A stretch of 64,000 nucleotides of DNA from Eledone cirrhosa (GCA_964016885.1 OZ024765.1:14880001-14944000); one strand, 5' to 3'; counted from the stretch's first letter, positions 3,301 through 62,045 are shown. A program made the numbers and translations. Notes: a model not told the origin generated them from the sequence alone.

Positions 3301-3467
3301 GTCCGACCCTCTACCTCATGATGTAATAGTAAGAAAAGCACTCGACGTTATGCAATTCATTCATTTTGATGTTGAATCTTGTTGGTGGTGCGAGAACGGA
3401 GTTAGTTATTATTGAGTAAAATGACAAGAGGCCGGACTGGTGAAATTCCTTCCAAGATTTATTTCAG

Positions 3468-3530
3468 CAAACACTATGTACATTTTAGAGGCCAAGTTCC
3501 GTAAAATCCTGGTGACATCATCAGGTGTTT
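3468..3530 (-). ncRNA. Degenerate hammerhead (family B; GAAA mutated to AAAA)
   Basis: Reverse complement reads aaacac-CTGATGA-tgtcaccaggattttacggaacttggcctct-AAAA-tgtaca-TA-gtgttt; flanks are homologous to 10793-10900. Confidence 0.65.
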
Positions 3531-3654
3531 ATTGCATAATAGTTTTATAATAAAGGAATAATGGTAAACACAATCCAAGAGGCTAAAAACACATAGTAAA
3601 ATGTATTTGACTCGAAGGCGATCAAGAGGGTCGGTTGTTGTCAGTTTAGCTGAG

Positions 3655-6525
3655 GGGGTATATATATCCATATGTGCGTATATATGTATGTGTGTGTGTA
3701 TATCAATATATATATATATAGAGAGAGAGAAAGAGAAAGAGAGAGGGAGAGAGAGAAAGAAAGAGAGTGTCAGAGAGATAAGGAAGACAGATAGTGTGTT
3801 ATAGATAGGTAGAGAGATAGATAGATAGATAGGTAGAGAGATAGGCAGATAGATAGATAGAAAGATAGATAGAAAGATAGATAGAAAGAAAAACACAAAC
3901 AACATTGGAGAAAGAAAAACAGGAGTAATAGGGAGATAGAGAGACAGAGAAAAAGAGACAGAAAGACAGATAGAGAGAGAGGGGGAGAAAGAGAAACTAG
4001 TGTGAGAAAGAGATCTAGAAACAGACATAAAGACAGAGAGAGAGAGAGAGAGAGAGAGAGAGAGAGAGAGAGAGAGAGAGAGAGAGAGAGAAACTAGAGT
4101 GAGAGAGAGCTAGAAACATACCGAAAGAGATAGAGAGATAGAGGTAGAGTGTGTGTGTGAGAGAGAGAGAGAGAGAGAGAGAGAGAGAGAGAGAGAGAGA
4201 GAGAGAGAGAGAGAGAGATAGAGAGAGAGAGAGAGAGAGAGGGAGAGAGAGAAACTAGAGTGAGAGAGAGCTAGAAACATACCGAAAGAGATAGAGAGAT
4301 AGAGGTAGAGTGTGTGTGTGAGAGAGAGAGAGAGAGAGAGAGAGAGAGAGAGAGATAGAGAGAGAGGGGGAGTGAGAGAGAGAGAGAGCGAGAGAAAAAG
4401 CAATAAGTGGAACTTTGGAAAACCTTACCGTCGGTTATTTGTTTCGACGTTTTATTACAGTCCGGTATGTGTGTGTGTCTGTGTGTATGTGTGTGTGTGT
4501 GTGTGTGTGTGTGTGTGTGTGTGTGTGTGTGTGTGTGTGTGTGTGTGTGCGTAAGTGTGTATGTGTGTGAGTTTGTGTATGTGTGTGTGTGTGTATGTGT
4601 GATTGTGTGTATGCGTTTCTCTGTGTGTTTGTTCTTCTATGTGTGTGTGTGAGTATGTATGTGTGTATGTGTATGCTGGTGTGTTTATTTGTTCTTGTGT
4701 GTCTGTGTTTGGTCTTGGGTGTGTGTTTGCGTGTGTTTTTGTTCTTGTGAGTGTGCGTGTGTGTATTTGTGTGGTTGTGTGTGTTTATGTGAGTGTATGT
4801 GTAAGTGGCACTGTGTGTGCTCAAGTGAGGATATATGTTTGCTTGTCCAAACATATACGGATAAATATATGAATGCGTATGGGTAAATATGTGTGTATAC
4901 GTATATATATATGCATACATATATATATATATATATATATATATATATATATATATATATATATATAAGTATTTGTGTATATAACAAGAAACTGTACACT
5001 GTACATATTATCGACTCTTCGAGTTCAAGCAATAGCATATATGTAAGTTAACGACACACATACACACACAGACAAATACACTTATATATATATATATATA
5101 TATATATATATATATATATATATATATAGATAGATAGATACGTATATATATTTATATAACTCTGTCTCTCTCTGTATATATATATATATATATATATAAA
5201 TATATATTTGAACAAGTACACACACACAGACATATATATATATATATATATATATATATATATATATATATATATATATATATATATATATATATATATA
5301 TATATATATATATATATATATATATATATAAATATATATATATATATAAACATACACATACATATATTTATAGATATATATTCATTATATTAAGGCAAAA
5401 ATGTGTACTCTTTTCTCTCAATTGTCAAACACACATATGGATATATATAAATTTATATTATATTATATATATATATATATATATATATATATATATATAT
5501 ATATACATATTTATATATATATATATACAAATATATATCTATATATCTATTACAAATCTCTCTCTCTCTCTATATATATATATATATATATATGTATACA
5601 TACAAATATATATCGATACATCAAAGTCTATATACATATATATACAAATATCTATCCATTTATACACACACACACACACACACACACACACACACACACA
5701 CACACACACACATATATATATATATAGACTAGAAAATAACAGTCTGTGTTCCACTACTCTGATCAATCAGCAACAAGCTAGAGTAAGCAATGGACGTTAG
5801 ACATTAAACAAAAGCTGCCATTTCTTTATGACGTCACTGAACCATATGTTAAGAATATAATGTAGAAAATAGAGGAACTCTCGAAATAAAGGAGGAAGTT
5901 ATGGTCAGATATCTACATCTATATACCAACTTACATTACTTGTAGTATAGGATGTTTTTTTTATGTAGATATATATTTATGCTTTATGCTTATATATGAA
6001 TTGTGTATTATTCTCTCTCTCACCCTCTCTCTCTCCATATATATATATATATGTGTGTGTACATATAAAAATATTGACGTAAATAAATACACATATACAT
6101 ACACACATATATATATATACATACGTTAGTGTGTGTATATATACACACACATATATATATATATATATACACCTGTATATATGTATATATATATATATAA
6201 ATATATATACATATATATATATAAATATATATATATATACATATATACCTACATATATATATATATAAATATATATATATATAATATATATATACCTACA
6301 TATATATATATAAATATATATATATATATACATATATTATATATGTATATATATATGTAGGTATATATATATGATATATATATATACCTACATATATATA
6401 TAAATATATAATACATATATATATATATATATATATTTATATATATATACACACACACACACACATATATATATATATATACACACACACATATATATAT
6501 ATATAATATATATATATATAATGTA
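3655..6525. repeat. Compound microsatellite block: (GA)n, (GATA)n, (GT)n, (TA)n
   Basis: Direct inspection; interrupted by short unique spacers. Confidence 0.95.
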
Positions 6526-7639
6526 CAAGTATTAAACAACATATTTACATAAATCTAAAACATCAAGTGTAAATAATGAAAAAATTCGAAAAATTAATGG
6601 AATAATGAAATAAAAATGTATTAGCCTTATTAGTGTCATGACACCATTGTATAGAGTGGAGAAAATAGAACGATGTAGTAGCATACGATATATATACAGA
6701 CATATATATATATATATATATATATATATATACCAACCAGAGGTATATGATCTTTAAACCGATGAAATACCAATGAAGGCTTTTTACTCATATGTAACCC
6801 ATTTGCAACAACGAAGCACGCCATCTTTTCATATATTTATATATTTTACTCCGCTGTGACCCGTCTGTTTCTTTCTTACTGCTTCTCCTTTCTTTTTACC
6901 CCCTCTGCTTGTCACTCTCTAAGTTAGCCTCTTCCTCACACTTTCACTCACTCTCTGCTACTACCTCTCCATCACTTCCTCCCGTTTTACCTGTGTGAAA
7001 TCCTTATCTCGCTCACATTTCACCTAGGTTGGATGGTCTTTATCTCTCGTCTACGATTTCACAGAACTTAAGTTCATCGATTTCAGGGACTTGACTCTTT
7101 CTGCCTCACTTTTCGTTGCATTACCATCTTTGTTCGTCTACATGTCTCGCTCGTTTCACCCTATTTTACGTGTCCCAACGACTTTCTTTAGCCGTTGCTC
7201 GCACTAACCAGAGGTATATGATCTTTAAAGCGATGACATACCAATGAAGGCTGGAAGATCACTGATGGAAGACTAATTTTACTCATATATATATATATAT
7301 ATATATATATATATATATATATATATATATATAGAGAGAGAGAGAGAGAGAGAGATGTACCCTGTAAAATGAACTGCATAACTTTAAGCCAGGAACTTTT
7401 CAGCATCCCCTAGTATGTACAAATATCTGTCGTTGTACGTAAAAGAAGAGCATGATTTGCTGTCACTACCATCGTGCCACCTATGAGGCTGTGTCCCCCA
7501 TGAGTGCTTTGGAAACCACAAGCAGTAACTAATAGCAGGGGGCACAAGCTTTCCTATCCCGATGTCATCTATATATAATTAATATATATATATAATTAAT
7601 ATATATATTAATTATGGATTAAACAACACAATATAATTA

Positions 7640-7708
7640 TTCCATTACCCAAGGTTTCACGAAGTCAGACGATTCTAACAGGAACGTCTAGTTCGTTCAT
7701 CAGATGAA
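7640..7708 (-). ncRNA. Type I hammerhead ribozyme (family C)
   Basis: Reverse complement reads ttcat-CTGATGA-acgaa...ttcgt-GAAA-cc-ttg-gg-TA-atgga; helices I, II and III all pair. Related to 44502-44579. Confidence 0.8.
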
Positions 7709-60334: not shown

Positions 60335-60356
60335 TAGTATACAATTTCATATACTA

Positions 60357-60450
60357 AGCATATCTGAAGACCTTTCGATTACAGAGCCAGGTTCGATCTA
60401 TAATAGGTCTTGCCTCGAGTTGATCGATAGTGAAACATATGTAATATGTT
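60357..60450 (+). ncRNA. Type I hammerhead ribozyme (family M, right arm)
   Basis: agcatat-CTGAAGA-cctttcgatt...gatcgatagt-GAAA-catatg-TA-atatgtt; palindromic ACATATGT; lies in an imperfect palindrome ~60228-60470. Confidence 0.75.
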
Positions 60451-60706
60451 ATTATGCAACACTGAATCCCTATTAATTATCCTTACAGTATATATATATA
60501 TATATATATATATATATATATATATATATATATATATATATTTATATATTATTATTTTTATACTTTGGGAGGGTCATGTTGCAAATAAGAAACACACGCA
60601 CCATGGCTTTCACTCCAATTTATTATAAATTAAATTTATAAATTTAAGAATTTAGATATTTCCGGTTGGTTGGTTGGTTCCATAACCGGACTGTTGTTCA
60701 TATATT

Positions 60707-60749
60707 GTCAAAATTCTTTCGTCACACATTCTGTGACCTCTTCAGTGAC
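60707..60749 (-). ncRNA. Type I hammerhead ribozyme (family A)
   Basis: Reverse complement reads gtca-CTGAAGA-g-gtcac-agaatgt-gtgac-GAAA-gaat-TT-tgac; element ~60630-60805 is homologous to ~2545-2715. Confidence 0.78.
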
Positions 60750-62045
60750 TGGGGATTCTTTTCTTTGTTTTGTGCCTCTCCTTTGTTCTGTCCTACGCCA
60801 TCTTGTTTTTATAAGAATATATATATATATATATATATGTGTGTGTGTGTGTGTGTGTGTGTGTGTGTGTGTGTGTGTGTGTGTGTGTGTGTGTGTGTGT
60901 GTTATGTATATATGTATATGCTGGAGCCATTACTTTATGATTGACCTAGAAACGACGAAATACAATGATGCAAAGTTTGCCTCGGCGGGATTTGATCTTA
61001 ACAGAAGCAGAAAATAGAAATAATTGCCGTATCACATTTGATCCAACGTTCTCATGACTATCAAATTGTGACCAATATCACAACCATTGCAATATATAAT
61101 AGTATATATACATTACACATCAAACTAACACAGAAGGAACCTGGATAGAAAGACATCAGTGGAATAACTCATAACTATCTTAGGCAGAATCTTACAAGAA
61201 GAAAAAAGAAGCAATTGAAACTCGCTGAATATCGATCATGAAAGCAATATGAATTCAAAAATATGGCGCACAGACTAACCTAGCAACAAGCTAGAGCTTC
61301 CTAGCAATCTACTAAATCTAGACACCAGTAGCAAATTATTTCATGAGAGCCAAAAATGAAAGTCTTGTGTCAACGGTCAAATAATATTTCAGTTAGAGCG
61401 AAAGCAAATGAGAAACAGACGCTACATTAATGTGATAATTCTCGTCTGAAATAACACTGAAATATCACAAGCGTCATTGAAAAATGTTTCATATAGCGAA
61501 AAGACGAAAAGAGAGACAACACATCGTGTGTGGGATGGACGTGAGGCTGCGAGAGGAGGGAAAGAAATGAAGGAAGAAAAAATAAATTAAAAAAATGAAA
61601 GAAAAAGAAAATAACATAAGGGAAAAAAATGAAATAATAAACAAATAAATATAAACATAAAAATATCTAATAAACAATAACACAAACAAATACACAAAAC
61701 ATAGAGTGAAGAAAATACAAGATATGAAAAATGGCGAAAAAAAAATGGCGTCAAGAAGACGAGAAAATGAGAGAGATATTTTACTGTAAAAGTTATTACT
61801 GAGGCACGATTTAATACACAAACGTGTAGACGTAAAAGAGGACAGTAGCACTCAATACGTTTCCAGAGAGTATTTTATTATTTTGTTTCTGTTACAATGC
61901 TGTTAATGTTATTCTATATTGCTTCTTGCTTACTCCGAGTTTAGCGATTCCTACCTGATAATCTCAACTATATATATATATATATATATATATATATATA
62001 TATATATATATATATATATATATATATATATATATATATATATAT

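What the first reader, a model, noticed from the sequence alone, without database searches (positions are those of the whole stretch)
3338..61856. Shared RTYGAGTRC motif downstream of the ribozyme in otherwise unrelated families
Seen: the motif lies on the ribozyme strand ~40-130 nt 3' of the cleavage site, near the element end. Family B: GTCGAGTGC 3338(-), GTTGAGTAC 11256. Family D: ATTGAGTAC 14483(-), 23108 and other copies. Family G: GTCGAGTGC 31378, GTTGAGTGC 43889. Family E: GTTGAGTGC 44027(-), variant GTAGAGTGC 37931. Family K: ATTGAGTAC 49417, 54489(-). It also occurs at 57176/57661, with orphan hits at 8712, 55675, 60076 and 61848. A rough uniform-base estimate gives only 1-2 chance hits in the non-microsatellite fraction. 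It was not evident in families A, C, H or L. Inference: a common cis signal, such as RT recognition, 3' end formation or an internal promoter.
Basis: partly seen in the sequence, partly recalled or inferred. Interest (0 to 1): 0.8.

Follow-up and report, generated by a model that had tools for sequence, protein, structure and literature searches.

The report
Bulged RNA hairpin in Penelope tails
The shared nine-letter motif is one strand of a small bulged hairpin found at the ends of Hydra-type Penelope jumping genes and of many unrelated-looking passenger elements, in this genome and in distant animals, and it is likely the handle by which their telomerase-related enzyme grips its RNA and starts copying.

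Summary
The motif is real: 20 hits against 2.9 by chance, and genome-wide about 50-fold over a reversed control when followed by (TA)n. It is not a linear signal. It is the 3' strand of a bulged hairpin, RCTC-Ynn-loop-nnR-UN-GAGY-RC. The 2-nt bulge is nearly fixed, the upper stem covaries across families, and the loop runs from 3 to 63 nt. It lies in the Penelope-like-element (PLE) 'tail': 35 of 47 inverted 5' arms stop just before it. The likely driver is the Hydra PLE clade. The hairpin follows Hydra-type ORFs and their hammerheads in this genome, in host DNA from other assemblies and in 3 of 6 published Hydra consensi (coral, sea cucumber, read by eye). It was absent from 12 of 12 non-Hydra ends. 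Best reading (inferred, about 0.6): the RNA handle for the Hydra reverse transcriptase, fixing the two cDNA start points. No binding was tested, and the hairpin folds weakly on its own. Eight paper searches found no description; an earlier scan note saw PLE hammerhead ends elsewhere, not the hairpin.

The parts
11203..11264 (+). Bulged hairpin, family B1: ACTC/GAGT lower stem, 5-bp upper stem, 40-nt loop, UU bulge; TA array 77 nt 3'
10783..10970 (-). Inverted, tail-less 5' arm of the B1 element; its direct copy ends about 6 nt before the hairpin
   Evidence: another run also shows ends at 11195 followed by TA
11090..11096 (+). Hammerhead core CUGAUGA of B1; predicted cleavage site 116 nt 5' of the motif
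   Evidence: cleavage untested
3338..3402 (-). Bulged hairpin, family B2; upper stem CGTT/AACG compensates B1's CGTA/TACG; 3' end interrupted by another repeat
14483..14508 (-). Bulged hairpin, family D (4-bp upper stem); further copies 23091-23116(+), 30042-30067(-), 30530-30555(+), 55327-55352(-), decayed copy at 54739(+)
31365..31386 (+). Bulged hairpin, family G1 (UC bulge); hammerhead core at 31258
43876..43897 (+). Bulged hairpin, family G2; the G group aligns with G4, the pLTR of a Hydra-type ORF element
44027..44053 (-). Bulged hairpin, family E; UA-bulge variant at 37913-37939(+), decayed copy at 22343-22378(+)
49405..49425 (+). Bulged hairpin, family K; second copy 54489-54509(-)
57628..57669 (+). 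Bulged hairpin, family J (one mismatch in the lower stem in this copy; intact in L199); second copy 57176-57223(-)
8699..8720 (+). Decayed copy of family N (intact in L196 and L127), not an orphan
   Evidence: start read from the sequence
60030..60084 (+). Copy of family Q with a long loop (intact in L010); 5' strand partly decayed, start approximate
61848..61871 (-). Family S: lower stem and bulge present, upper stem 1 bp; hammerhead stem III remnant upstream; uncertain member
25746..25828 (-). Family T, found by the covariance model and not in its training set: 4-bp upper stem, 63-nt loop, inverted arm ending just 5' of it, TA array 47 nt 3'; does not match RTYGAGTRC
38335..38357 (+). Family U: GCTC/GAGC lower stem (compensatory change of the outer pair) with a UA bulge; second, decayed copy 39922-39944(-)
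10395..10403 (-). Chance match inside a GGT microsatellite; not part of the system
55675..55683 (+). Chance match in an unrelated repeat; no partner strand

Best explanation
The motif is the 3' strand of a bulged hairpin that sits in the tail of Hydra-clade Penelope-like retrotransposons and of the non-coding elements that likely borrow their enzyme, and it likely is the RNA site that the reverse transcriptase binds. Shown: the hairpin lies on the ORF and hammerhead strand, 40-120 nt 3' of the predicted cleavage site. Elements have two fixed ends, one at a UA-rich site 0-12 nt 5' of the hairpin and one about 20-80 nt 3' of it, both abutting (TA)n. Inferred, by analogy with the anole PLE, whose reverse transcription starts at two internal sites that bound its tail (PMC11167929): the protein nicks a (TA)n tract, holds the RNA by the hairpin, and primes one cDNA 3' of the hairpin (tailed copy) and another at the UA-rich site just 5' of it (tail-less copy). 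Joining the two 5'-truncated cDNAs head to head would give the palindromic insertions seen here. Any RNA that carries the hairpin would be copied, which would explain why families with unrelated bodies, up to 2.3 kb of non-coding sequence in family B, share it.
For: Structure: 15 of 18 family representatives have ACTC plus at least 3 upper pairs with a 2-nt bulge, against 0, 0, 1, 0 and 1 of 18 for bulges of 0, 1, 3, 4 and 5 nt; shuffles give a mean of 0.30 and a maximum of 3 in 2,000. Alignment A1: 93.3% of cells paired, 19 double-sided changes, 0/500 shuffles reach this, slid controls 20-55%. RNAalifold predicts the same 7 pairs unprompted. The outer pair switches from A-U to G-C in 2 of 21 own and 9 of 9 foreign representatives. 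Position: 35 of 47 inverted arms end within -12..+2 nt of the hairpin start. In the 590-kb sample, 34 of 87 two-nt-bulge hairpins have a TA array 20-85 nt 3', against 1/92, 4/31, 3/50, 2/15 and 1/70 for other bulge sizes. Driver: L161 and L257, adjoining stretches, run from the end of a Hydra-type ORF through about 1.7 kb of UTR and a hammerhead to a tail-less end. Family G4 and the inverted pLTR beside the Hydra-type ORF in L153 continue that end into the hairpin. L032 joins such a UTR to a motif tail. In L063, 2 of 3 Hydra-like ORF ends carry an ACTC/GAGTGC hairpin and the third stops 7 nt before it. Other hosts: of 16 Hydra-type 3' ends in G004/G005, 6 pass the hairpin test directly after their hammerhead and 1 more has the lower stem and bulge with a bulged upper stem. 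Of the other 9, 7 end at an AT-rich run before a hairpin would start, 1 is cut inside it and 1 lacks it; chance is 1.5% per segment. Non-Hydra ends: 0 of 12. Published Hydra consensi, read by eye: clear in Hydra-2_Amil, Hydra-2_Ajap and Hydra-1_Ajap (twice), near-match in Hydra-1_Crog.
Against: No binding, cleavage or priming was tested. Folded alone in local context, the lower stem has pair probability of at least 0.44 in only 6 of 18 representatives and at most 0.12 in 10 of 18, so a protein would have to select it. The strand evidence is thin: G-U against A-C counts are 14 to 3 in own families but 1 to 2 in foreign ones, and 9 of the 14 come from a flanking pair that is often unpaired. I chose representatives after seeing the hairpin, families are related, and the pair-count shuffles do not correct for relatedness. 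12 of 47 arms end elsewhere. The L153 and L063 hairpins deviate (an extra bulged base; a 1-nt bulge) and score only 17.8 and 11.2 bits. Hydra-1_Amil and Hydra-1_Obim consensi end without a clear hairpin. Only the G group is tied by sequence to an ORF-bearing element in this genome; for B, D, E, J, K and the rest the Hydra driver is inferred from the shared hairpin. The window holds no Hydra ORF. One bound hairpin setting start sites on both of its sides is itself unexplained.
Confidence: 0.6

Rival explanations
1. The hairpin acts in DNA, not RNA. It forms in single-stranded cDNA or as an extruded arm of the new duplex, and positions the GIY-YIG endonuclease to cut the adjacent internal TA-rich site, producing the tail-less end by resolution of the intermediate.
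For: The tail-less end lies at a TA-rich site that resembles the (TA)n target. Craig et al. 2021 ascribe tails to endonuclease resolution (PMC8557442, passage). Frangieh et al. cite that the Drosophila tail was required for endonuclease recognition (PMC11167929). The strand evidence here is weak.
Against: Family-level G-U pairs occur on the sense strand (G2, J), whereas first-strand cDNA is the antisense strand, where they would be A-C mismatches. Loops up to 63 nt and an asymmetric bulge suit a folded single strand better than a duplex site. In the anole PLE the tail ends were mapped as reverse-transcription starts.
Confidence: 0.22
2. The hairpin serves the RNA's own life cycle, such as 3'-end formation, export, stability or gating hammerhead folding, through a host protein, and only indirectly fixes the ends.
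For: It is on the ribozyme strand at a bounded distance from the cleavage site. The anole hammerhead needs protein to cleave (PMC11167929).
Against: It is confined to Hydra-type ends, although non-Hydra PLEs in the same genomes also carry hammerheads. Its distance to the tail-less end (0-12 nt) is far tighter than to the ribozyme (42-116 nt).
Confidence: 0.1
3. The motif is a linear DNA element such as an internal promoter box, or a neutral relic of common ancestry.
For: Seven bases are nearly invariant, and some families share further short words 3' of the motif (listings).
Against: The variable bases covary with a partner 12-70 nt upstream. Families do not align over their length. The same fold with a different outer pair occurs in coral, sea cucumber and other hosts.
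Confidence: 0.08

Closest known systems
Hydra clade of C-terminal-endonuclease Penelope-like elements (Craig et al. 2021, PMC8557442)
   Same: (TA)n targets, canonical hammerhead near the 3' end, inverted 5'-truncated copies, optional tail; protein motifs RWK, DKT, CxCX5C, CxxC and CxH in the ORFs that precede the hairpin.
   Different: In the passages, Hydra section and supplement parts read, the paper lists the hammerheads but no tail hairpin. Tails here are about 60-150 nt, not 30-40 nt. Most carriers here have no ORF in the copies seen, and tens of thousands of Hydra first-look candidates occur in this genome (62,160).
Anole Poseidon element PAc (Frangieh et al. 2024, PMC11167929)
   Same: Reverse transcription starts internally at two sites that bound the tail, downstream of the hammerhead; a region 3' of the start is needed for activity. 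Read by eye, the published template also forms a hairpin with a 3'-side bulge just after the mapped start (not folded here).
   Different: Different clade, no sequence match to RCTC/GAGY, the tail overlaps the ORF start, and the binding element was bounded only by truncation.
Non-LTR retrozymes (Cervera and de la Pena 2020, PMC7229834; Li et al. 2026, bioRxiv 10.64898/2026.07.22.740005)
   Same: Non-coding hammerhead-bearing repeats proposed to be non-autonomous PLE derivatives.
   Different: Those are defined as tandem repeats; these are dispersed head-to-head palindromes in (TA)n. Neither text, as far as read, names a recognition element.
3' stem-loops shared by LINEs and their SINEs; the bulged epsilon stem-loop of hepadnaviruses; telomerase RNA stems (all recalled, from no call)
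   Same: A short structured RNA handle for a reverse transcriptase, shared with passengers.
   Different: No sequence or Rfam match. Here element ends lie on both sides of the hairpin.

Membership tests
Penelope-like element (structure) | Inverted 5'-truncated copy and partial tandems (pLTRs) | tested here: met
Penelope-like element (structure) | Tail present at one end only | tested here: met
   35 of 47 arms stop at the hairpin start
Penelope-like element (structure) | Type I hammerhead core in the pLTR | tested here: met
   Cores by pattern in B, G, J, K, M, N, P; truncated by the fold-back in most D and E copies; no Rfam hammerhead among the 150 of 504 rows shown
Penelope-like element (structure) | Hammerhead self-cleavage | not testable with these tools
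   No RNA run listed
Hydra clade (ORFs upstream of the hairpin) | CxCX5C linker | tested here: met
   L153, L009, L060, L258, L262; not detected in L063
Hydra clade (ORFs upstream of the hairpin) | RWK motif and DKT in place of DKG | tested here: met
   L060 has RWK and DKT, L009 DKT, L262 RWR; L153 is 5'-truncated there
Hydra clade (ORFs upstream of the hairpin) | CxxC and CxH in the endonuclease, CCHH absent | tested here: met
   absence of CCHH read from the L153 translation
Hydra clade (ORFs upstream of the hairpin) | Placement in an RT phylogeny with reference Hydra proteins | not tested
   Reference proteins were not available as tool sequences; P0121 is only 21% identical to a Neptune ORF
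Hydra clade (window elements) | Sequence continuity with a Hydra ORF element | tested here: inconclusive
   Met for the G group via G4; not shown for B, D, E, J, K, N, Q, S, T, U
Hydra clade (window elements) | Insertion into (TA)n | tested here: met
Neptune-type PLE as driver | Hairpin in the element's own 3' end | tested here: not met
   No hit at their own ends in 16 own GIY-YIG loci; 0 of 30 foreign loci on the sense strand by the strict ACTC test; 0 of 12 by the RCTC test
Non-LTR retrozyme | Head-to-tail tandem units each with a hammerhead | tested here: not met
   Copies seen are dispersed head-to-head palindromes or partial tandems
Known Rfam family | Match at gathering score | tested here: not met
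   Only sub-threshold hits to palindromes and microsatellites

The most novel reading that the evidence does not exclude
A portable hairpin of about 25 nt, conserved from cnidarians and echinoderms to molluscs, is the RNA recognition element of the Hydra reverse transcriptase, a relative of telomerase. It sets start sites on both of its sides and is enough to make any transcript, up to kilobases long, a substrate for insertion into (TA)n. In this genome it has licensed more than a hundred thousand passenger insertions from over a dozen unrelated-looking families.
Probability: 0.45. Interest if true: 0.82.

Novelty: new variant of a known kind. Interest (0 to 1): 0.66.

Why it matters
How Penelope-like reverse transcriptases, the closest relatives of telomerase, pick their RNA and why their copies have a tail at one end only are open questions; the one in vitro system bounded the binding region only by truncation (PMC11167929). 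This gives a defined, covarying candidate with ready compensatory tests. It also gives a sequence tag that assigns non-coding hammerhead repeats to a driver clade. It explains a large repeat class of this genome: 65,871 forward-strand hits for the main motif and 14,671 for the UA-bulge variant. If the hairpin suffices, it is a minimal cis tag for RNA-templated insertion into TA microsatellites.

Tried and rejected
Rfam on the window and on 7 loci gave only sub-threshold microRNA-like hits to palindromes and microsatellites. Neptune-type and other non-Hydra PLEs were first taken for the driver and rejected. Family B was followed upstream for an ORF; it is about 2.3 kb and non-coding in the 14 loci read. 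A pattern scan of metagenome contigs gave 29 loci, none with a hammerhead core within 170 nt upstream, mostly chance. Viral contigs held no relative of either protein. No RNA holder was listed for family B, and contigs laid on it say nothing on expression. A second alignment with foreign copies had wrong coordinates and was discarded; pairs were counted by script instead. DNA around homologous proteins from named animals could not be obtained, so breadth rests on co-binned host DNA and six published consensi. Pyatkov et al. 2004 was not held. Repbase Hydra sequences, the figures of PMC11167929 and the supplements of the bioRxiv preprint could not be seen and might mention this hairpin.
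Full report
Observation. The motif is present at all listed places, 20 times in the window against 2.87 expected. The window is a microsatellite-rich stretch of a 3.0-Gb animal genome; from its repeats I infer a cephalopod-like host and did not try to identify it. In 59 stretches of 10 kb from elsewhere the motif is only about 1.7-fold over shuffles (42 against 20-32). 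But 28 of 42 hits lie 40-79 nt 5' of a TA array, against about 1.6 expected, and 3 of 42 have one at that distance on the other side. Genome-wide the motif followed by 40-66 nt and (TA)6 has 65,871 forward starts against 1,315 for the reversed control. A few families dominate these counts, so I collapsed the hits into families. Two window hits, 10395 and 55675, are chance.

Anatomy. The carriers read (TA)n, inverted arm, fold-back centre, hammerhead or its 3' half, AT-rich stretch, motif, 20-80 nt, (TA)n. The fold-back centre differs between copies of one family, as expected for 5' truncation. This is the arrangement described for Penelope-like elements, with an inverted 5'-truncated copy and a tail at one end only (PMC8557442, passages; PMC3846280, passages). 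Of 47 copies with a measurable arm, 35 have the arm end within -12..+2 nt of an ACTC that precedes the motif, 10 end further upstream and 2 include the tail. So the motif lies inside the tail. Family B is young (most copies 96-100% alike), about 2.3 kb long and without an ORF in the 14 loci read.

The motif is half of a hairpin. The upstream ACTC pairs with GAGT. The two bases before GAGT are a bulge, and the first base of the motif closes an upper stem. Among 111 hits near a TA array, 96 have an ACTC within 70 nt, and in the 87 with at least 2 upper pairs the closing pair is C-G in 47, T-A in 38 and T-G in 2. Of 18 family representatives, 15 have at least 3 upper pairs with a 2-nt bulge; other bulge sizes give 0 or 1, and shuffles a mean of 0.30. 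Only B1-B2 and the G group align with each other by blastn. On a 15-sequence alignment, 93.3% of cells pair, with 19 double-sided changes, and no shuffle of 500 reaches this; RNAalifold predicts the same pairs. These tests lean towards the structure, since I picked representatives after seeing it and the families are related. Less biased checks agree. A covariance model found a family outside its training set and outside the motif (25746-25828, minus strand) with the predicted arm end and TA array. A descriptor scan of the 590-kb sample, which holds a few training copies, singles out the 2-nt bulge (34 of 87 near TA, against 1-13% for other sizes). Further families replace the outer A-U pair by G-C on both sides and use UA or UG bulges. 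Against: folded alone, the lower stem has probability of at least 0.44 in 6 of 18 cases and at most 0.12 in 10 of 18.

The driver. A GIY-YIG search gave mostly Neptune-type ORFs. Several window hammerhead families are their 3' ends (56127 with L099, 2605/60745 with L150/L151, 38141/44300 with L078). These lack the hairpin, as do foreign relatives (0 of 30 loci on the sense strand; 0 of 12 post-hammerhead segments). A different ORF in L153 carries the CxCX5C, CxxC and CxH motifs that define the Hydra clade (PMC8557442 section 11) and has 62,160 first-look candidates in the genome. Following one relative (L161, then the adjoining L257) leads through an AT-rich UTR to a hammerhead and a tail-less end at (TA)n. 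That end matches family G4 at 79% and the inverted pLTR beside the ORF in L153 at 82%, and both continue into the hairpin. L032 joins the same kind of UTR to a motif tail. A second Hydra-like family has three copies in L063: two end 60 nt after the start of an ACTC/GAGTGC hairpin with a 1-nt bulge, and one ends 7 nt before it. The other 11 ORF ends examined were tail-less, truncated or ran off their loci.

Other animals. With a Hydra-type protein (P0121) I searched five assemblies that hold host DNA and read 16 of the Hydra-type 3' ends in two of them. Six have the hairpin directly after their hammerhead. One has the lower stem and bulge with a bulged upper stem. Seven end at an AT-rich run before a hairpin would start; in four of these a sister copy shows it. 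One is cut inside the hairpin and one lacks it. Chance is 1.5% per segment. All nine foreign representatives use GCTC/GAGC. In the six Hydra consensi published with PMC8557442 (supplement parts 52 and 53), I read the hairpin by eye at the 3' ends of Hydra-2_Amil (coral) and Hydra-2_Ajap (sea cucumber) and twice at the start of Hydra-1_Ajap. Hydra-1_Crog (sea louse) has a near-match with one mismatch. Hydra-1_Amil and Hydra-1_Obim show none; the latter is listed as lacking a pLTR. Of 22 occurrences of six 3'-strand words in that file, the 4 in Hydra consensi all have the partner strand; the other 18 were not tested for one.

Mechanism. Shown: structure by covariation, strand, position between two fixed ends, and restriction to Hydra-type ends among those tested. 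Inferred: function. In the anole element, reverse transcription starts inside the RNA at two sites that bound the tail, downstream of the hammerhead, and hammerhead cleavage is dispensable in vitro (PMC11167929, parts 1-3 of 4). I therefore read the hairpin as the protein's RNA handle, with one start 3' of it and one at the UA-rich site just 5' of it, the two cDNAs being joined head to head (0.6). The main rival is a DNA hairpin that guides the endonuclease to the internal TA site (0.22); the wobble evidence for the sense strand is weak. A host-factor role (0.1) and a linear or neutral motif (0.08) fit less well.

What is known. Tails, hammerheads, TA targeting and the Hydra clade are described. 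I found no account of this hairpin in eight searches. I read: PMC8557442 (passages, section 11, supplement parts 1, 2, 52, 53 and one search); PMC11167929 (parts 1-3 of 4; supplement search without hits); the 2026 retrozyme preprint (parts 1-3 of 5); and passages of PMC3846280, PMC7229834 and PMC4209133. Subscription papers and Repbase reports were out of reach. Rfam has no match. One earlier scan note described PLE hammerhead ends in a TA tract of another genome without the hairpin; three further look-ups were blank.

Verdict. A real, conserved and apparently undescribed cis element of a known clade, with a clear experimental test. New variant of a known kind; interest 0.66.

Noticed in passing
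L096, L097, L101, L102, L112 (3' ends), L026-type ends, L099-type ends; window 56030-56330: Neptune-type 3' ends in this genome carry a different short hairpin near their end (about TAYAC paired with GTGTR, often with two pyrimidines before the 3' strand). It could be the Neptune counterpart of the Hydra hairpin; seen by eye only.
   Followed up: no
L175, L177, L187 (metagenome contigs): A partial-tandem repeat ending at TA arrays carries ACTC...TTGAGT about 40-50 nt from its end (about 21 bits with the model), but with an imperfect upper stem and no hammerhead core; picked by pattern, so possibly chance or a distant carrier.
   Followed up: partly
window 11256-11340, 8712-8752, 25710-25745; L193; L269: A second short word, about ATACGGA, recurs 5-35 nt 3' of the hairpin in several own families and in one foreign Hydra end; it may be a further conserved tail element.
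   Followed up: no
L140-L153 (family B): Family B is a very young, about 2.3-kb non-coding element with an internal 512-bp duplication and head-to-head arms over 2 kb; a large passenger.
   Followed up: partly
L026-L054, L096-L114: Abundant Neptune-type families have altered hammerhead cores (UUGAUAA or UUGAAAA in place of CUGANGA), which would be inactive or non-canonical.
   Followed up: no
L192, L193, L198, L067: Hammerheads with a very long stem II (about 80-100 nt) occur in family M and in one Hydra-like end; standard descriptors would miss them.
   Followed up: no
window 62047-62390; L009: This window family is the 3' end of a Hydra-type ORF element (L009) with a CAGAAGA core variant and a degenerate hairpin (12.5 bits).
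   Followed up: partly
L202-L256, G004, G005: Many assemblies filed as bacterial genomes hold animal PLE sequence, that is, co-binned host DNA.
   Followed up: partly
window 11394-12212 and 17532-18605, 40568-41242: An RTE-like LINE fragment lies next to the B1 element, and a 123-bp satellite occurs twice in opposite orientation.
   Followed up: no
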